Origin: the human T2T-CHM13v2.0 reference genome, Homo sapiens
NCBI RefSeq assembly: GCF_009914755.1
Contig: NC_060932.1
Length of the DNA stretch: 64,000 nt
Reading direction: 5' to 3' (one strand)
In this document: positions 27,101-39,300 of the stretch, one piece after another
Layout: each line of letters begins with the position of its first letter
Position numbering within the stretch: the first letter of the stretch is position 1
The notes under the pieces: model-generated
What the model was told of the DNA's origin: nothing
The model's database searches: none
What the model saw: only the letters and a program-made list of their open reading frames with translations
Program-made: the position numbers and the translations under genes

Positions 27101-28222
27101 TTAACCGTTATAGAAATGCAAATCAAAACCACAATGAGATACTATCTCACACCAGTCAGACTGGCAATTATGAAAAAGGCAAAAAATGACAGACATTGGC
27201 ATGGTTGCAAAGAAAAGGGATGCTTATACACTGCTGGTGAAAATGTAAGTTAGTTCAGCCATTGTGGAAAGTAGTGTGACGATTTCTCAAAGAACTTAAA
27301 GCAGAAGTACCATACGACCTAGCAATCCCGTAATTGGGTATATACTCAAAGGAATATAAATCATTCTATCATGAAGACACATGTATGCGTATGTTCACTG
27401 CAGCACTATTCACAATAGCAAAAACATGGAATCAACATTAATGCCCATCAATTGTAGACTGGATAAAGAAAATATGGTACACATACACCACGGAATACTA
27501 TGCAGCCATAAAAAAAATGTGATCACGTCATTCGCAGCAACATGGATGGAGCTGGAATCCATTATCATAAGTGAACTAGCACAGGAACAGAAAACCAAAT
27601 ACCGCATGTTCTCATTTATAAGTGGGAGCTAAACATTGAATACACATGGACGCTAAGAAGGGAATAACAGACACTGGGGCCTACTTGAGTGGGGAGGAGG
27701 GAGAGAATTTAAAAAACTACCTATTGGGTATTATGCTTATTACTGGGGTGATGAAATAATCTGTACACCAAACCCTTGTGACACACAATTTACCTATATA
27801 ACAAACCTGCACATGTACCCCTGAACCTAAAAAAAATTTAAAAAATCCAACCCCACTGGAAACAAGAAAAAAAAAATGTAAAGAGGTTTAATTAGCTCAT
27901 GGTTTTGTGGGCTATACCTGAAGTATGGCGCTAGCATGTTCTTAGCTTCTGTGAGGCCTTGAGCTGCTTACAATCATGGCGGAAGGTGAAGCAGGAGCAG
28001 GCATCTCACATGGCAAGAACAGGAGCAAGAGAGAATGATGGGGACGATGTCACACACTTTCAACCAACCAGATCTCAGGAGAACTCACTATCTTGAAGAC
28101 AGCCCTAAGTCATGAGGGATTCGCCCCTATGACCCAAACTCTTCCCACCAGACCCCACCTCCAAAATTGGGGATTACATTTCAACATGAGATTTAGAGGG
28201 GACAACATCCCATCTATTATCA
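21191..28222 (-). mobile_element. MSTA-like MaLR LTR split by an L1 (pieces 21191-21262 and 27880-28222)
   Basis: tgtgatagtctgttcttgcatt..ataaagaaaagaagttta resumes as aaagaggtttaattagctcatgg..acaatcatggcggaaggtgaag..tatca. Degenerate 5-bp TSD cactg/ccttg. Confidence 0.85.
21263..27879 (+). mobile_element. Full-length inactive LINE-1, L1PA15/16-like
   Basis: 5' caagatggcagactagaagcagc. Disrupted ORF1 (~22780-23760) and ORF2 remnants ([49 protein letters not shown]), 3'UTR and A tail. TSD aaagaagttta / aaagaggttta. Confidence 0.95.
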
Positions 28223-31200
28223 CCTTGCTTTCAATTCTTTTGGGTACATTTCCAGAAGTGTATTTGCTGAGCCATATGGTAATTTGATTTTTAACTTTTT
28301 GAGAAACTATCATACTGTTTTCCATAGTGGCTACACTACTTTATATTCCAACCAGCAGTGCTCCAATCCAGAAGTGTTCCAATTTATCCAATCCTTACCA
28401 ATATTTGTTATTTTTGGAGTTTTTTTTTGATACAACTTTTTCAGTAGGTGGTGGGTGTGAAGTGCTATCTTGTGGTTTTGAATTTGCTCTCCCTAATGGT
28501 TAGTGGCATTGAGTGTCTTTTCATGTACTTATTGGCCATTTGTATATCTTCTTCGGATAAATTCCTGTTTGTCTTTTGTCTATTTTTAATCAGATTTTTA
28601 TTGTTGCTGCTGTTGAGTTTAGGAGTTTTCTGTATATTCTGGATATTAATCCCTTATCAGACAGGTGACTTGCAAATATTTTCTCTCATTCCATGGTTGT
28701 CTGTTTACTCTGTTGATAGTCATTTTATATACCAATTTAAAATTTTCATGAACTCCAATTTGTCTATTTCTTCTTTTGTTGCTTGGGCCTTCAGTGTCAT
28801 ATCCAAAAAATCATTACCAAATCTAATGTCATGAAGCTTTTCTCCTAAGTTTTCTTCTAAGAGTTTTATAGTTTTAGCTGTTACGTTTCGGTCTTTGATT
28901 TTGAGTTAATTTTTGTATAGAGTGTTGGATAAGAGCCCAACTTCATTCCTTTGCTTTTGACCATCTATTTTTTTTTCCCAGCACCTTTTGCTAATATCCT
29001 TACTAAGTGTTTTTCTGTACTTCATTAATACATAATACTAATATTGTCAGATCTTTATTGCAGCAGGTATACTATTTTTCTAGATAATTTCCTATGGGAG
29101 ATCTTCTATAATGTTAATCTCTGTGATGTCTATAGTCAGAATAGGCTAGGATATACTGTAGTAACAAGCCATACTGTAGTAATAAACATCCCCCCCTCGA
29201 ATCTTAGAGGTTTTTCCTTTTCTTAGCAGTTTATTTCTTACTCAGAGATTTGGCTCTGAGTCTGAGGAACACTCTACATGTTGGCTGGGATTCTAGGCTG
29301 TTTTGATCATATGGACCCTCCCTATCAACACTAATTCCACAATTCCTGGGTCAGGGAAAATAGTGTGATAAGACTACAACACTATTAAATCCTTCTACTT
29401 GGAAGACTTGGCATTTCATTGGCCAGAACAAGTTAGATGGACATGCCCAACTTCAAGTGAGCAGGGAACTACAGTGACCCCTGTGCTCAGAGCAGAGGAG
29501 AACCGGATGTTGGTGAATAACAATAATGCTTTCTACATGTGGCTATAATTATTCCCAATGTACAGATCAAGAAATTAGGGCTCCACAGCTAATTATAAGA
29601 AAGTTCTATTTGGTTTTAAAACCATCTTCTCTCTTTGTTCCCAATAGCTATTGCATTGTAACTGGAAATAGACTATTTTCTCCCTAAAGAACTATCCAAT
29701 TTTCTGCCTGCGCTAGTCTTTGTGATGTTTATGATGATTTAACAATACTGCTTGCTAACTGTAAGCCAACTGATTTTCAGTAAAATAACAAAAATCAGAT
29801 TGTGGTGAATCTTTCTTATGGTTTTTCTGAGTCACTTACTGCTCCTAAGAGCCCACCTGGGGCTGTCAGGAAATACTCAAGGGGCTTTTTTCTTCCTTTG
29901 GCATTCAGGAAGCTCAGCTAGAGGCTTAGGAATTAGAATCCAGGCATGTAGAGGTAGCAAAGGTGACCACTAAATAGAAATAAATCTGCAGTGATGTAAA
30001 TTTTAAAAATAAGCATTAGAGGTACATGACACTCTGCTCATGTTAACCCTCTACACCAGGAGGGGCTTCCTTTCTTTCTTCCAAACCCTAGTACACCTTG
30101 TTTGATCTCTGCTGTAATCCAGAACACATTTTATCTGGCTCTAGAATTCATGCTTATCATGTCTTATTCACCTCTGTATACTGAGTTTCCTCAGACCTCA
30201 TCAACTGATGGGTAGAAATGAGATTACAGTGACAGTAATAACCCCATTTCATAGACTCCTATGACCCAATGTGTTCTATAGATTTCAGCTGCTTAAAAAG
30301 TCCTATTCTCTCACTCAGGGAGTAAAACATTGCTTTTAAATAAAACCTTAAACCAGGCCTTGGGTAGTTCACCCAACATCATTTCACCTCCAGATACAGC
30401 AGTGGGGATAGGTATGTGGGCAGAAGCACAGACTGGGGTGACAAGTGTTGGCCAGTGATAGCCAGTAAGAAGTATGCTGGCTGGGGCTTTGAAAAGCTCT
30501 GGTTTCTCTGACATGAGGAGTAGTCGGGCTCTTGCTTGCCCTTTGTCCTGTCCCTTGATTCCTGCCTGGAATATAGATGTGATGCGTGGAGGTGCAGCAG
30601 CCACCTTTCCACATGAGGGCTGAAGCCAAGGTCAATGACAGCACACCAAGAAGTATGAGAAAGCTTTAGCTCTGCACTGCTTCATTCAGACTTCTAGTTA
30701 CAAGGAAAAAAAAAACCTTCTAACTTGTTAGTCCGGTTTTTTGTGGCTTGCAGCCAACAGCAATCCTAACTTTACAGAATGCCAAAGCACATACCTACAA
30801 AAATACAGAAGAGATTAAATTGCTTTTAAAGGAAAATATCCTCATTTGAGTCAAAATAGTAGATAAGAGGCAGAGACTGGCCAGATTCAGGAGCTGAGGC
30901 AGGATAGACGTCTACAAAAATAGAGACTGCAGTAGCCTACGTTTAAGAACATTCCCCTCTCCCCCAGCACATCAGCACCACTCATATATAATCTGATTTA
31001 TGCAGAGGCAGGGCAGAGGCAGGCACAATGACACAAAAGCCTCATAAAAACTCCTAAATAATTCAACAACTAGGTCATTTGGTGAATGGGCTTTTAGTAA
31101 ATTAGCTTTCAGCAGATTGATTTTCAGCAAAGTGACTTAAAGCCTGTGTTTTCAGCTGGAACCGTTGCCATTTCCCAAGGCTGCCACACTTTCTACAATA

Positions 31201-33452: not shown

Positions 33453-34059
33453 GAAAAAGGAAGGTCAGGAGTGTGTCCTCCCCAGGGTCAAATCCTACCA
33501 AAGCTGCTTTTTCCACTTCCCCTAGGCCTCCTGTCTCCACCTGTAACACCAGGTTTCTGCCTCTTTCCAAGTTTAGTATTATTTTCCTGCTTTGTATCAC
33601 AACCCCTGCAAGGACTAGAGCATGTGAGCCATAAGGAGAGGCCATGCACAGTGATTAAGAACAAGCCATTAACATCGCAGAACTGGATTTAAATCCAAGT
33701 TCAAACATTTAACCTTCCTTCTGAGATAGAAAGATGGGGGTAATAGCCCCAAACTTATAGGTGAACCATGAAGAATGTGATAATAAAGTTAAATTCTTGG
33801 CATACAGTGAGTGCTCAATAAAGGATATTAAAACCTAGACCTGTGGCTTGGGTATGGCATGATAATCTTCTGGAAACTGACAGCTATTTTCAGAAGCTTA
33901 AGACACATAGTTTCCTCTCTCCCTTCCTCTTTTATGGTTGTAAGACATCAGTAGGCAGTGTTTGAGTTCCAGCTTAGCTACGATTTGGCCATATGACCTT
34001 GTACAAATGACTCACATGTTAAGGATTCAGTTTCTTTATCTGAAATATAGTGGTAACAC

Positions 34060-36337
34060 TTCAGTGATCCCACACAGCACAACCGCACTCCTCTGCCCCC
34101 CTACCCCTGGCTGTATGTGGGACCAGGTGCTGCAGAGCAGGAGGTGGCGCCTGTCGGGGAGGGGGATGGGGGGTGTGTGTAGGGGCAGGAGATGGCGCCC
34201 CTCGGGCATGGCAGGCGGCAGGACCTGAGCCCTGCCCCACAGGGAGGCAGCTGCTAGCCAGCTATGGGAACGGAACAGCGCCGCCGCAGCCTCAGCCCCT
34301 CGCGAAGCGCCGGGCAGCTAGGGAACATGGCCCTGGAGGGGCTCTGCTCGGCCCTCAAAGATGGACAAAATGTTGGAATCAAGCACATTCCTGCAATCCA
34401 GTATGACATTTGGATTCAAACCAGCAATGAGGTCATTTTGCTTCACCAAATTATCCTGTCTCATATCCACCAAACAAGGAGCGTATCTACATTTTGGAAG
34501 CTGCTCCACGTGAAAGAATCGAGCTTCGATGAACATTATTATATAGAGCCATCATTTGAGTGTTGGTTTGATCCCTTGGAAGTTCCAGATGGGCCATTTG
34601 GTTTCTCTCCCCTTATAGATTATTACTGCGGCATGAAAAACCCTCCATTAATCAGATCAACAAGGAGATTCATGTGGATTAAGTTTAGTTCTGATGAAAA
34701 GAACTAATATTCATTTATTTCAGATCCAGACTTTACTTACCTAGGAGATTGTGGGTTTCAGCTCTTGGGAGCCGATGGAATAGTGCACTCTAGTCAGGTA
34801 CAACAAGAAGAGAAAACAAAACCTGGCCAAGCCATTGATTGCATCTGGACCATGAAAGCCACTCCAAAAGCTAGGATTTGAGGTTCCTAGATTATCCAAT
34901 GGAGCACTCAAATGAATCCAAGAGAGACATTGTTGCAGTCTACGATGAAAGCAGTTCTATTGAAAACCTGAAGGCCAAGTTTCGCAGCACTGTGGCCAAT
35001 GATGGAATGCTTAAAACAGGAATAGGCGTGATACAAATGTGGGCAGATGAAGGTAGTCGGCTTAGCTCAAATTCTCTTTACTTCCTTTGTTGAGCATAAC
35101 ACATACTGTTTATCCACCCACCCATCAAAAGGCATTTTGTCTGTTCCCACCTTCTGGCTATTGTGCGTAATGCTGCTGTGAACTTTGGTGTGCAAGTAAC
35201 TGAATTCCTGCTTTCCATTCTTTGGAGTATATAGCTAAAAGTAAAATTGCTGGATCATCAGCTCCCTGCACAGGCAGCACTGTCTTTTGCCATAGCAACA
35301 TGTGCATCAATAATCCTTTAGTCTGTAATGGTGTCCAAAATTGTGTATACCCTTGGGATGAAAATCATTGTAAAGAAAAGAGAAAAGGCAGGACTATTTG
35401 AACAAATCACTGAAACTCATGGGACAGTTATTGGCATTACTTCAGAGATTGTCTTGGTCTTTCTCATTATTTCTGTTTTAGTACAAGTGAAACAGCCTCA
35501 AGAAAAAGTCATGGCTTGCAAAACTGCTTTTCATAAAACCGGGTTCCAAGAAATGTTTGATCCTCCTTATTATGAACTGTTTTCGCTAAGGGACAAAGAC
35601 ATTTCTGCAGATCTGACAGACTTGTCAGAAGAACTGAACAACCACTAGAAGACGCGGCACTCCTCCACCACCTCCCAGTGCATCCATGACCACCACTGTG
35701 GGTCGCTGACCTCCAGCGTCAAACAAAGCAGGACCAACCTCAGTTCCACGGAGCTTCCTTTCCAAAATGACTTTGCACAACCACAGCCAATGAAAACATT
35801 TAATAGCACCTTCAAGAAAAGTAGTTACACTTTCAAACAGGGACACAAGTGCGCTGAACAGCCCCTAGAAGATCAAGTAATGGAGGAGATTCCTTGTGAA
35901 ATTTATGTCAGGGGGAGAGAAGATTCTGCATAAGCATTCATATCCATTGAATTCTAATCTTCTGCTAAAGGTGATGTGAATTCTTAAGTGTGTACATATG
36001 CAGCCTCCAGGGTACCATACTGTTTCCAGCAGCCAACCCTTTTCTCCCGCCACAACTATGAAGACCTTAATTCACCATTAACCTATTATATGGTGATGTT
36101 TTTATTCTCTCAGGCAGTCTATGTATGTTAAACCAATCAAGGAACTTACTGTATTCAGTGGAAACAATAATCATCATCTATTGCTTGGTGTCATAAAGCA
36201 CCACCAGTTAAAGAGCATTGGAAGAGGTGGTTGGATGGAGCCAGGCTTGGGCTGCCTATTAGTTTTAGCAAGGGGAATACTGCTCTTAACGATACAGCTC
36301 TGTCAATATTCTGATCCCACAATAAACTTTAAAAAAA
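34060..36337 (+). pseudogene. NETO2: Processed pseudogene of neuropilin and tolloid-like 2 (CUB-CUB-LDLa-TM kainate receptor auxiliary subunit)
   Basis: GC-rich 5'UTR and ATG at 34327 ([11 protein letters not shown]). Intronless peptides [71 protein letters not shown], ending at TAA 35955-35957, with frameshifts and stops. AATAAA 36321 plus A tract. Degenerate TSD atatagtggtaacac (34045-34059) / acacagtagtaacac (36339-36353) splitting a MIR. Confidence 0.95.
35096..35261 (-). mobile_element. 166-bp antisense L1M 3'UTR fragment inside the NETO2 retrocopy
   Basis: gtttatcc..ggctattgtg..taatgctgctgtgaac..ttctttggagtatata..aattgctggatca resembles the other antisense L1M segments in this window (21090-21180, 28230-28280). 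Confidence 0.85.
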
Positions 36338-39300
36338 GACACAGTAGTAACACCTATTATTTAATAGGCCACATTCCCTGATGAGTGTATTAATGCATTA
36401 TATAATTTAATCTTCCTAACCCTGTGAGAAAGGCATTTTCCTCAATTTAGATGAGAGGTTTAGTAGCTGTCCAAGGTTACTCTGCTAGTGACTCACTGGG
36501 TCAGAATTTGAAGCCTGAACAGCCAGGCTTCACAGCTGATGCTCTTTTGCCTGCATCAGCCTCCTGCCCATGGCTGTCCCTCCCATAGGTCTTTGGTGTG
36601 AGCATAGAGATTATGGCTGTGAAACTGCTTTCTGTGTTGCAGAGAGACAGAACAAATTCCAGTCATTGTGTGATCTAATATGCTGGCTCCATATCTAACC
36701 TCCCTTTGGGGCCCATCTCTTAAGCCACAAGAACCCCAGTGAAAGGAATCAGTAGAGAAACCCATTGCTCTGTCACTGAACAGCTTCCCCCTCTAGATCT
36801 GTGATGGTTGTCTTGGGAACCAAGCAAATTCCTTGCTCTCTGCTCTGAGTATGGGCCGGCTGGTACGGCTGCCAGAGATGGGCTTCTGCTGGTTTCTCAG
36901 GTGCTGTTGGCCTTGGTGGTTTAGAACGCTTGAAGATTGGGCAGGAATCAAGAGATGTGGGGTAGTTTAAAAAAATAAATAAATAAAAAATAAAACTCAT
37001 AGAAATTTGGGTAGAGACCAAAACCAGTCAGGAAGACCATCCAACTCAACCTTGACTCTGAAGTTCCCAGGCAGAGAAGGAGACAGGATAGAACGTGGGA
37101 AAATCAGAACGAGGAAGAAGAGACAAAGTGAAGATGGGAGTCAGAACGCAGTAAAACTCCTATTCAGAAAGTATCAGTGCCAGGCTCTTAGAGGAGGGTG
37201 GGGACCTTGGGCATAGGCAGAAGGAGCTGCCAAGACACTAAATTCACCCAGATGGGCAGGCTCGATTCGTCATTGCTGTTTGTACCACCCCCTGAGGGAA
37301 GGGACCTCAGGACGGTCAGTTTTGATGGGAAGCATGGTTAGGGCTTGAAGAGTTCCTCAAGGGCTGGTGCCGGGTGTCTAGATAAAGTGTGGGAAAAGGG
37401 AGGATGGTGGAGCTACAGAGGCAAAAGCGAGCAGAGGGAAGATAGTACACTAGCACACCTGCTCCATGACTGCCAAAGCTGGTTCCAGTGAGAGGCCTCA
37501 TCTTTGTTTGACCTTGATTCAGCCTTCACTGAGCCAGAGCCACCAACTCAAGTCATACCCTGCCCTTAGGAAATCCACCAGCTTGTTGCAAGAATCACAA
37601 GCCATTACTACCCAAATTCACTGATTTTCTAATCAGTCTCCCCAGCAAATAAAAATTTCTCTCATATGTTTCAATTCACAATATACAAAGCATTCAGCTC
37701 ATGTCTGATAATACTACAATGAGCTATATTACACTAGAACTCAACCTAGCATCCACATCAAAAACCCTTAGTTTTCTCATTGCTTTAAAGGGATCTGCGC
37801 ATCAAGGCACTTGCATGTTGGAGATGGGACGACAAATACCCATTCCCCTTGCCTCCAGGTTGTAATCAGCTGGCAACAGGCTTGATGAGCCAAACAGGGA
37901 CCAGAGAATTTATTTTCTCAATATCAGCAAAGACCCTATCATTCTCAAGGTCATGGTTTTCTAGTCAACTGTCTCCCTCTCCTGCCCTGAATGGAAGGTA
38001 GATGGACCAGCATAGCAGGACTAACTTATTAACCAATCCACTGCTTTGCCTTTTTGCTTTAGGTGCTGCTGAGGCAGGCAGGGAATGGTGAGCTCAGGAG
38101 ACTCACTGTGCCTGGGCACAGACCCAACAGGAAGCAAGAGCCCTGAGAAGAATGAGCAGTGACCTTAGCACATTAGCCTTGTTCAACAGAGCAACATGGC
38201 CGCCAAGTGCCAGCCTCCCACCAGCTCTCCAGGACCGAATCAGTCTTGCTTTCTGCTGATGCGGTGGGAGGAGGAGTTAGAGGTAAACTTGCCATCCCAG
38301 TTTGCCTAGAACTGAGGTGTTCCCAAGGTGTAGAGTTTTTCATGCTAAAACCAGAAAGTCCCTAGCAAATCAGGATGCACTGTTCACCACCTTCCTTAAG
38401 CCTTGGCAATGTGTCCCTCCAAAGAGAGGACAGGGTATAAAGAGAAGAAAAGAAAGACTTCTCCCTAATGTGGCTTTAGTAGCCACCCTAGGCTGATGAG
38501 AACTGGGATAATTAGCGGATTGTGTATGGGTGTGGGGATGAAATTTTAGATGTAAATACAATACCACCTTAATATTACTGCTGTTCGCGTGGTAGAACTA
38601 CAGGTGATTTTTACATTCTTTATGCTCTTCTGTTTTTTCCAAACTTTCTGCAATAAACATCTGTAGCATGGTAATCAGAAAAAAAGATCTCAGCTGTTTT
38701 CAAACAATAGTAATAAAAAGAGAAGACCAGTCATTTAAATAATAAAAACCATTTTTAAAATGTGATCCTTTGATCACTTTCTCCTGTACCCCAGATGGGG
38801 GTGAGAGGCAAAGTTATATTTATTAACCAGTGTAGAACAACTAGTAAGGAAAATGAAAAACGGATTCCAAATTTACCCTGTGTAGCCTTTGGATACCCAG
38901 TGGTAGCATCGCAATTTTCCAGAAGTAACTATTTCACTACTCTCTCCTTCTTTATCATAATCAACAGTGACTATTTAATCTTGATTCACCCCAAACCCAC
39001 ACTACATTATCCTTTTCCTCTCCAGGTACTTTCATCGAATTGTAATTGTGATTTAATGTTATGCCCTTGATTTAAATAGCGTTACTTTTTGAGCAAGCAT
39101 GGCTGAAAATACAATTTTCTCTATTGTATTCAGACCCCTTTCAAGGAATTAATGTTGGAGACTGAGATGACAAATTCTTTATTCCCCTTGCCTCCAGGTT
39201 GTTACCAGTTGGTAATGACACAAGGGGCCAAGCAGGGACCAGATAATTCATTCTCTCCATAGCAGCAAGGACCTTATCACTCTCATGGTGATGGTTTTCT

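What the first reader, a model, noticed from the sequence alone, without database searches (positions are those of the whole stretch)
35096..35261. Fossil L1-derived cassette ('poison') exon captured in the NETO2 retrocopy
Seen: a 166-bp antisense L1M fragment interrupts the retrocopy exactly between ..TTTGTTGAG C and CT CCC TGC ACA (FVE P|PCT). No NETO2 bases are lost, and there is no TSD or poly(A/T) tail. It ends in ..gctggatcatCAG, and homologous L1M text continues with GGTAA (compare gagccatatggtaat near 28270), so it stops at a latent splice donor. In the NETO2 frame it reaches TGA after 28 codons (35179-35181), and 166 is not a multiple of 3. Established: CUB and LDLa modules are typically bounded by phase-1 introns, and this site is the phase-1 CUB2/LDLa boundary. 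Inference: this is not a later transposon insertion but an exonised intronic L1 already spliced into the ancestral NETO2 mRNA. It would give an NMD-sensitive or transmembrane-less isoform, possibly still produced today.
Basis: partly seen in the sequence, partly recalled or inferred. Interest (0 to 1): 0.8.

Follow-up and report, generated by a model that had tools for sequence, protein, structure and literature searches.

The report
Fossil L1 exon in NETO2 pseudogene
A dead, reverse-transcribed copy of the NETO2 gene on chromosome 8 preserves a 166-base exon made from an old LINE-1 fragment that still sits in the matching NETO2 intron, so it records an ancient frame-breaking splice form; it is a neat example of a known phenomenon.

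Summary
The 166 bp at 35096-35261 sit exactly between NETO2 exon 6 (end of CUB2) and exon 7 (LDLa). No NETO2 base is lost, and the insert has no target-site duplication or A/T tail.

Read in reverse, the insert encodes a relic of LINE-1 ORF2p, so it is antisense L1.

Its best match in the genome outside itself is 89% over 152 nt, against 83% or less for other L1 copies. That match lies in NETO2 intron 6 on chr16, on the gene's strand, 422 nt upstream of exon 7.

The parental copy reads GT(AATT) immediately after the last insert base. Insert and intronic copy share 14 derived states and form a clade with 99/98 support. Their divergence (K2P 0.115) resembles the rest of the retrocopy.

In the NETO2 frame the exon gives 28 codons and then TGA, and it shifts the frame.

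Caveats:
- Today's human intron has no AG at the collinear acceptor.
- The first 13 and last 3 exon bases are locally scrambled.
- Changes since retroposition are balanced between the two lineages, so there is no sign of constraint.

I read this as a fossil of an exonised L1, probably extinct in that form. It is a new example of a known kind.

The parts
34049..34059 (.). 5' target-site duplication of the whole retrocopy (AGTGGTAACAC)
   Evidence: Matches 36343-36353 at 10 of 11 bases. 15 of 2000 shuffles reach this. Sequence read.
34060..35095 (+). NETO2 retrocopy, exons 1-6 (5'UTR, signal peptide, CUB1, CUB2). It starts about 220 bp upstream of the annotated pseudogene start (34282), uses the short donor of exon 4, and carries internal deletions and many stops.
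   Evidence: Exon-by-exon matches to chr16 at 90-93%. The 5'UTR alignment reaches about 34068, and by eye about 34058. Exon 4 short donor. Exon 3 end with a deletion. Stops.
35096..35261 (+). 166-bp exon derived from an antisense L1 fragment of NETO2 intron 6. The parental copy is T2T chr16:52883587-52883750, minus strand.
   Evidence: 89% over 152 nt; other L1 copies 83% or less. (parent sequence and GT donor). (14 shared derived states). (clade support 99/98). (ORF2p relic on the reverse strand).
35179..35181 (+). TGA in the NETO2 reading frame, after 28 codons of the L1 exon and 80 nt before the exon's 3' junction
35262..35375 (+). NETO2 exon 7 (LDLa module, phase 1-1, 114 nt)
   Evidence: 96.5% identity to chr16:52883051-52883164. 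(Ldl_recept_a).
35376..36329 (+). NETO2 last exon (TM, cytoplasmic tail, proximal 3'UTR), ending just after AATAAA at 36321-36326
   Evidence: contiguous 965-column alignment, 90.7%..
36331..36339 (+). Poly(A) remnant of the retrocopy
   Evidence: The parent continues with unrelated 3'UTR sequence.
36343..36353 (.). 3' target-site duplication (AGTAGTAACAC)

Best explanation
LOC392268 is an L1-mediated processed pseudogene of NETO2, spanning window positions about 34060-36339. It was made from one mature NETO2 mRNA molecule that carried an extra 166-nt exon between exon 6 (end of CUB2) and exon 7 (LDLa).

That exon was spliced out of an old antisense LINE-1 fragment, a relic of the ORF2 C-terminal region. 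The fragment still lies in NETO2 intron 6, 22.6 kb downstream of exon 6 and 422 nt upstream of exon 7.

The exon's 3' end is the latent L1 donor (..N N G|GTAATT). Its 5' end must have used an acceptor that the present human intron no longer has.

Inclusion puts a TGA in frame after 28 codons and shifts the frame. The mRNA would therefore be an NMD candidate, or would encode a secreted CUB1-CUB2 protein lacking LDLa, the transmembrane segment and the tail.

Shown: the origin of the insert, its exact exon-junction placement, the GT donor, the frame consequences, and the retrocopy hallmarks.

Inferred: that splicing produced it; that an AG existed at the time; an age of roughly 40-55 Myr (K2P 0.115 with a recalled primate neutral rate of about 1-1.5e-9 per site per year); and that the exon was low-level or neutral rather than a selected regulatory exon.
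For: Placement in the parental gene:
- the insert's best non-self hit is chr16:52883590-52883741, minus strand, 89% over 152 nt and 203 bits. The next best L1 copy scores 83% over 117 nt and 123 bits.
- that hit is collinear with all NETO2 exons on the same strand, between the exon 6 and exon 7 hits (chr16:52906304-532 and 52883051-167).
- the parent reads ..gctggatcatacg|gtaattc. The GT starts at the base after the insert's last collinear base, and the L1 continues on both sides in the parent but not in the retrocopy.
- the junctions fall exactly at the exon 6 end and the exon 7 start.

Common descent of insert and intronic copy:
- there are 14 states shared by insert and intronic copy that occur in at most 1 of 8 other L1 copies. 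Identity is 140/166 to the intronic copy against 73-76% to those 8 copies.
- insert plus NETO2 intron copy form a clade with 99 (UFboot) / 98 (SH-aLRT) support among 10 rows.
- K2P is 0.115 for the L1 exon, against 0.087 for the 3'UTR and 0.036-0.101 for the exons.

Identity and consequences:
- ORF2p relic on the reverse strand.
- 28 codons, then TGA.
- CUB / LDLa boundary.

Retrocopy hallmarks:
- poly(A) remnant after AATAAA, and a 10/11 target-site duplication.

Literature context:
- (Attig 2018, passages): antisense L1 supplies many cryptic and alternative exons, with a splice-site hotspot near the ORF2/3'UTR boundary.
Against: - No AG lies at the collinear acceptor position in the T2T human intron (..cttgtgg|atgct..). 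The nearest upstream AG ends 82 nt before the inferred exon start.
- The first 13 insert bases align to the parent only with 3 substitutions plus a 2-nt gap.
- The last 3 bases are CAG in the retrocopy, ACG in the parent and ATG in most L1 copies. These same 3 bases also equal the last 3 bases of intron 6 (cag|ctccc), so BLAST assigns them to either place.
- No RNA evidence and no other primate genome could be consulted.
- Only one retrocopy covers this junction in the genome, so there is no independent replicate.
- Changes outside the first 11 columns are balanced: 8 retro-derived, 8 parent-derived and 2 ambiguous. This argues against a conserved function for the exon.
Confidence: 0.87

Rival explanations
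1. Same origin by splicing, but the mRNA captured was a one-off. It came either from splicing noise or from a rare, never-fixed allele that carried a new AG. On this view the exon was never a regular NETO2 isoform.
For: The acceptor AG is absent today, and L1 copies at that site read AT or GG, so the AG would have had to be gained and then lost. There is no constraint on the parental copy (8 versus 8 changes). A retrocopy samples a single molecule.
Against: An NMD-prone noise transcript is a rare template, so its capture suggests non-trivial inclusion in the germ line. The donor context is good (N-N-G|GTAATT). The long AG-free stretch of 82 nt upstream would favour a newly arisen AG.
Confidence: 0.3
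2. An independent L1 fragment inserted, or was copied by DNA repair, into the already formed retrocopy. It only happens to sit at the exon 6/7 junction.
For: L1 fragments are everywhere. The window holds others, for example around 28150-28400.
Against: There is no TSD and no A/T tail. The insert is a 166-bp internal ORF2 piece. It is placed exactly at the junction with no base lost. It is specifically related to the NETO2 intron 6 copy (14 shared derived states, clade 99/98). It ends exactly at that copy's GT.
Confidence: 0.02
3. The retrocopy was made from an intron-6-retaining pre-mRNA, or by template switching or gene conversion with the parental locus. Later deletions then left 166 bp of intron.
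For: The last three insert bases (cag) equal the 3' end of intron 6.
Against: This needs a 23.1-kb intron to be copied, followed by two deletions (22,557 nt and about 420 nt) that each end exactly at an exon edge and at a GT. The alternative junction (..gatcat|cagctccc) has no canonical sites either. All other introns are cleanly removed.
Confidence: 0.03

Closest known systems
[quoted passage not shown] 2006, PNAS)
   Same: A retrocopy preserves a splice form of its parent that differs from the reference mRNA. Carelli et al. 2016 (PMC4772013, passage seen) state that retrocopies served as archives of transcript isoforms and cite this work.
   Different: The Shemesh paper itself is not held. 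I saw only its title in reference lists, and its content is recalled. Whether NETO2/LOC392268 is in its lists is unknown. Here the preserved exon is TE-derived and its acceptor is no longer present in the parent.
LINE-derived (antisense L1) cryptic and alternative exons repressed by MATR3/PTBP1 (Attig et al. 2018, Cell, PMC6108849)
   Same: An antisense L1 in a long intron provides the splice sites. The paper reports a splice-site hotspot near the ORF2/3'UTR boundary and says older LINEs exonise more often (passages). Our fragment is a relic of ORF2p residues about 1192-1223 of 1275, in a 23-kb intron.
   Different: [quoted passage not shown] Here the evidence for inclusion is a genomic fossil, not RNA-seq, and the exon sits only 422 nt from a constitutive exon.
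Poison exons / regulated unproductive splicing coupled to NMD
   Same: Inclusion introduces an in-frame stop 80 nt upstream of an exon junction, with one more junction downstream.
   Different: Classical poison exons are conserved and regulated. This one shows balanced neutral change in the parent and a lost acceptor. NMD sensitivity was not testable.
Annotated alternative cassette exon of human NETO2 (Sanford et al. 2008, PLoS One, PMC2556390)
   Same: The paper lists NETO2 'exon position 9' as a constitutive exon just downstream of an alternative cassette exon (AceView/FAST-DB numbering). It shows the cassette's skipping rises on SF2/ASF over-expression in HEK293T cells (passages).
   Different: I cannot tell whether that cassette is this L1 exon, the LDLa exon or another one.

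Membership tests
Processed pseudogene (L1-mediated retrocopy) | All parental introns are removed at exact exon-exon junctions | tested here: met
   Eight parental exons are collinear on chr16 minus strand. Junctions were read at exons 3/4/5 and at 6/insert/7. The exon 7/8 junction follows from abutting BLAST alignments.
Processed pseudogene (L1-mediated retrocopy) | Poly(A) tract at the 3' end after a polyadenylation signal, absent from the parent | tested here: met
   AATAAA at 36321-36326 is followed by an A7 remnant at 36331-36337. The parent continues with other 3'UTR sequence.
Processed pseudogene (L1-mediated retrocopy) | Flanking target-site duplication | tested here: met
   34049-34059 matches 36343-36353 at 10/11. 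15 of 2000 shuffles reach this.
TE-derived (exonised antisense L1) cassette exon | The sequence derives from a TE copy lying in the corresponding intron of the host gene, on the transcribed strand | tested here: met
TE-derived (exonised antisense L1) cassette exon | GT donor immediately after the exon in the gene | tested here: met
   ..catacg|gtaattct in the parent
TE-derived (exonised antisense L1) cassette exon | AG acceptor immediately before the exon in the gene | tested here: not met
   The present human sequence reads ..attgtcttgtgg|atgct.. The nearest upstream AG ends 82 nt away. The ancestral state is not testable without other primate genomes.
TE-derived (exonised antisense L1) cassette exon | Presence in mature RNA | tested here: inconclusive
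   Only indirect: the retrocopy itself is a DNA copy of a spliced RNA. No RNA-seq, EST or transcript annotation for chr16 was available.
Poison exon (NMD-coupled regulated exon) | In-frame premature stop more than 50-55 nt upstream of a downstream exon junction | tested here: met
   TGA at 35179-35181 lies 80 nt before the junction at 35261/35262, and a further junction lies at 35375/35376. The 50-55-nt rule is established knowledge.
Poison exon (NMD-coupled regulated exon) | Evolutionary conservation or regulated inclusion | tested here: not met
   8 retro-derived versus 8 parent-derived changes outside the first 11 columns, and the acceptor is absent today. Regulation itself was not testable.
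Poison exon (NMD-coupled regulated exon) | The transcript rises when NMD is blocked | not testable with these tools
   No expression data

The most novel reading that the evidence does not exclude
The L1 exon is not extinct. Human NETO2 may still splice to the conserved L1 donor (chr16:52883586/7) from another acceptor. One candidate is the parent-derived AG 44 nt upstream of the donor (..tggtttcag|ttctttgg..). This could be the SF2/ASF-responsive 'alternative cassette exon' seen in HEK293T cells (PMC2556390). If so, an L1-derived unproductive-splicing or soluble CUB-only switch for a kainate-receptor auxiliary subunit would have persisted for about 40-55 Myr while changing its acceptor.
Probability: 0.1. 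Interest if true: 0.55.

Novelty: new member of a known kind. Interest (0 to 1): 0.35.

Why it matters
This is a clean, datable case of exon birth from an antisense L1, and probably of exon death as well. The retrocopy fixes what the mRNA looked like roughly 40-55 Myr ago, and the living gene shows what happened to the splice sites since: the donor is kept and the acceptor is gone.

It also has a practical use. The curated pseudogene LOC392268 is annotated as two blocks with a gap, and its real extent is about 220 bp longer at the 5' end and about 180 bp longer at the 3' end.

Biologically it points to a specific junction to look for in NETO2 RNA data. Beyond that it does not change what is known about retrocopies or LINE exonisation.

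Tried and rejected
- Earlier findings of the scan were not open.
- Shemesh et al. 2006 is not held.
- Literature searches found no description of this pseudogene or exon:
  - NETO2 + pseudogene: 49 papers held both terms, 15 were listed, and none of those 15 titles and abstract starts concerns LOC392268.
  - NETO2 + 'cryptic exon': 0 papers.
  - NETO2 + 'nonsense-mediated decay' + exon: 6 papers, of which only Sanford 2008 is relevant.
  - NETO2 + 'cassette exon': 3 papers held both terms and 2 were listed.
- Attig 2018 has no NETO2 in the main text or in the 3 held supplementary files.
- I searched for a second NETO2 retrocopy covering the exon 6/7 junction as an independent replicate. None exists; only the parent and NETO1 on chr18 match. 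The chr2 and chrY fragments cover only the first ~90 nt of exon 2, plus part of exon 1 in the chrY one.
- A first TSD search used the wrong upstream interval (34080-34300) and found nothing. Once the 5'UTR was shown to extend to about 34060, the TSD was found.
- An alternative 5' alignment of the insert to parental ..aaatcacat.., 27 nt further upstream, matches 7/9. I rejected it because it needs a 24-nt deletion and gives no AG either (read).
- No splice-site scoring (MaxEnt) was done, because no such tool was available.
- The L1 subfamily was not determined.

Full report
**What is there.** The window is human chr8 (T2T-CHM13). At 35096-35261 the NETO2 processed pseudogene LOC392268 is interrupted by 166 bp.
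- The left edge follows ..cctttgttgagC. Parental NETO2 exon 6 ends ..tggagc|gtaagt.
- The right edge precedes CTccctgcaca. Parental exon 7 begins cag|ctccctgcaca.
- So the interruption sits exactly at the exon 6/7 junction and no NETO2 base is lost. No direct repeat or A/T run bounds it.

The junction is a domain boundary. The exon 6 translation hits Pfam CUB (profile 39-108 of 110, E=1.9e-5). The exon 7 translation hits Ldl_recept_a (3-37 of 37, E=7.9e-9). The codon is split C|CT, so the junction is in phase 1. Exon 7 is 114 nt and phase 1-1.

**The insert is antisense L1.** Translated on the reverse strand, it matches LINE-1 ORF2p residues 1192-1223 of 1275 (8uw3_A, E=3.6e-4). The only four distinct PDB sequences found at E<=1 are all ORF2p. 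It is also a high-copy repeat: the genome search gave 472 first-look candidates, of which 40 were scored and all 40 matched. I could not assign an L1 subfamily. Identity of 73-76% to eight other copies fits an old family.

**Where it came from.** The best non-self genome hit is chr16:52883590-52883741, minus strand, at 89% over 152 nt (203 bits). The next best L1 copy reaches 83% over 117 nt (123 bits).

Searching with the whole retrocopy puts that hit in line with the NETO2 exons, all on the chr16 minus strand. The exon 6 hit is at 52906304-52906532. The exon 7 hit is at 52883051-52883167, and 52883051-52883164.

By reading the loci I place:
- exon 6 at 52906308-52906536;
- the L1-derived stretch at 52883587-52883750;
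- exon 7 at 52883051-52883164.

That puts the L1 piece 22,557 nt downstream of exon 6 and 422 nt upstream of exon 7, inside a 23,143-nt intron.

In the parent the L1 continues on both sides of the 164 collinear bases. Immediately after the last collinear base it reads GTAATT (..gctggatcatacg|gtaattct). The retrocopy therefore holds just the part of the intronic L1 that ends at a donor-like GT.

**Specific relationship.** I aligned the insert with the intronic copy and eight other L1 copies.
- Insert and intronic copy share 14 states seen in at most 1 of the 8 others.
- Identity is 140/166 to the intronic copy, against 73-76% to the others.
- A maximum-likelihood tree of the 10 rows joins insert and intronic copy with 99/98 support. 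The bootstrap had not fully settled, so these values are rough.
- K2P distance is 0.115 for the L1 exon core. It is 0.087 for the 3'UTR and 0.036-0.101 for the other exons.

The insert is therefore as old as the rest of the retrocopy. With a recalled primate neutral rate of about 1-1.5e-9 per site per year, 0.115/2 per lineage gives roughly 40-55 Myr. This age is an inference.

**The retrocopy as a whole.** It is longer than annotated (34282-36154).
- The 5'UTR aligns back to about 34068, and by eye to about 34058.
- The 3' end runs to 36329, just after AATAAA (36321-36326), followed by an A7 remnant. The parent continues with unrelated 3'UTR sequence.
- An 11-bp direct repeat flanks it: 34049-34059 and 36343-36353, 10/11 identical, reached by 15 of 2000 shuffles.
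- The captured mRNA used the short donor of exon 4, so the 21 nt of the long form are absent.
- The copy has decayed, with many stops, a deletion at the end of exon 3 and deletions in the 5'UTR.
- No second retrocopy covers the exon 6/7 junction.

**Consequences of inclusion.** In the NETO2 frame the exon adds 28 codons and then TGA at 35179-35181. That stop is 80 nt before the next junction, and another junction lies 114 nt further on.
- By the established 50-55-nt rule the mRNA would be an NMD candidate.
- If translated, it would give a secreted CUB1-CUB2 protein without LDLa, transmembrane segment or tail.
- 166 is not a multiple of three, so the frame is lost in any case.
- The present parental version is 164 nt and has stops in all three frames.

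**What does not fit.**
- *The acceptor.* At the collinear position today's human intron reads ..attgtcttgtgg|atgctacattg.. There is no AG, and the nearest upstream AG ends 82 nt away.
- *The first 13 bases.* They align to the parent only with three substitutions and a 2-nt gap. They match other L1 copies better than the parent does, so most of that change is on the parental lineage.
- *The last three bases.* They are CAG in the retrocopy, ACG in the parent and ATG in most L1 copies. CAG also equals the last three bases of intron 6, which is why BLAST attached them to exon 7. The alternative junction this suggests has no canonical sites, so I keep the GT donor reading.
- *No constraint.* Outside the first 11 columns there are 8 retro-derived, 8 parent-derived and 2 ambiguous differences. 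With those columns included the counts are 9, 14 and 3.

My reading is that an AG existed when the mRNA was made. One transition away from today's ..tgtgg| would do, and the long AG-free stretch upstream would have favoured it. It was later lost along with small indels. The alternative is that a rare allele or a noise transcript was captured. Only other primate genomes can decide, and none was available here.

One lead remains open. The parental lineage has gained an AG 44 nt upstream of the donor (..tggtttcag|ttctttgg..; column 208). This could serve as a new acceptor. It is untested.

**Rivals.**
- A separate L1 insertion into the retrocopy is excluded. The insert is specifically related to the NETO2 copy, sits exactly at the junction, and has no insertion hallmarks.
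- Intron retention followed by deletions, or conversion from the parent, would need two deletions ending exactly at exon edges and at a GT.

**Comparison with what is known.**
- Retrocopies as archives of transcript isoforms is an established idea (Carelli et al. 2016, passage, citing Shemesh et al. 2006). The Shemesh paper is not held, so what I say of its content is recalled.
- Antisense L1 is a known source of cryptic and alternative exons. Splice sites concentrate near the ORF2/3'UTR boundary and older LINEs exonise more often (Attig et al. 2018, passages). NETO2 is not mentioned in that text or in the three held supplement files.
- Sanford et al. 2008 report an annotated alternative cassette exon just upstream of NETO2 'exon 9', responsive to SF2/ASF in HEK293T cells (passages).
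- My searches found no description of this particular fossil exon.

**Verdict.** This is a new example of a known kind and is of moderate interest. The 'poison exon' label is justified only in the structural sense. The evidence points to a neutral exon that is probably extinct in that form.

Noticed in passing
window 34049-36353: The NETO2 retrocopy is longer than the curated LOC392268 span (34282-36154). The 5'UTR homology starts at about 34060 and the 3' end runs to 36329 plus an A-rich remnant. An 11-bp TSD flanks it (10/11 identical).
   Followed up: yes
window 34724-34753; L017:1731-1756: The retrocopy derives from the NETO2 form that uses the proximal donor of exon 4, so the 21 nt gtattttaaatcccattccag of the long form are absent. 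It also derives from an mRNA ending at a proximal AATAAA about 390 nt after the stop codon. The captured mRNA therefore combined several alternative choices.
   Followed up: partly
L025 (chr2:53482476-53482566) and L026 (chrY:6915849-6915938): Two further loci carry about 90 nt of NETO2 exon 2 (87% and 83%). The chrY locus also carries 5'UTR-like sequence (66% over 268 columns). The two loci resemble each other over repeated blocks. They end inside exon 2, so they say nothing about the exon 6/7 junction. Their origin (truncated retrocopies or part of a larger duplicated unit) was not worked out.
   Followed up: partly
L002:1542-1544 (chr16, NETO2 intron 6): The parental L1 piece has a lineage-specific A-to-G change that creates ..tggtttcag|tt.., an acceptor-like site 44 nt upstream of the conserved L1 donor. 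This is a possible replacement acceptor for a shorter exon.
   Followed up: no
window 28120-28400: Another antisense L1 fragment keeps the same ..catatg|gtaat donor-like motif (28274-28284). It is only 55% identical to the insert over the aligned columns.
   Followed up: partly
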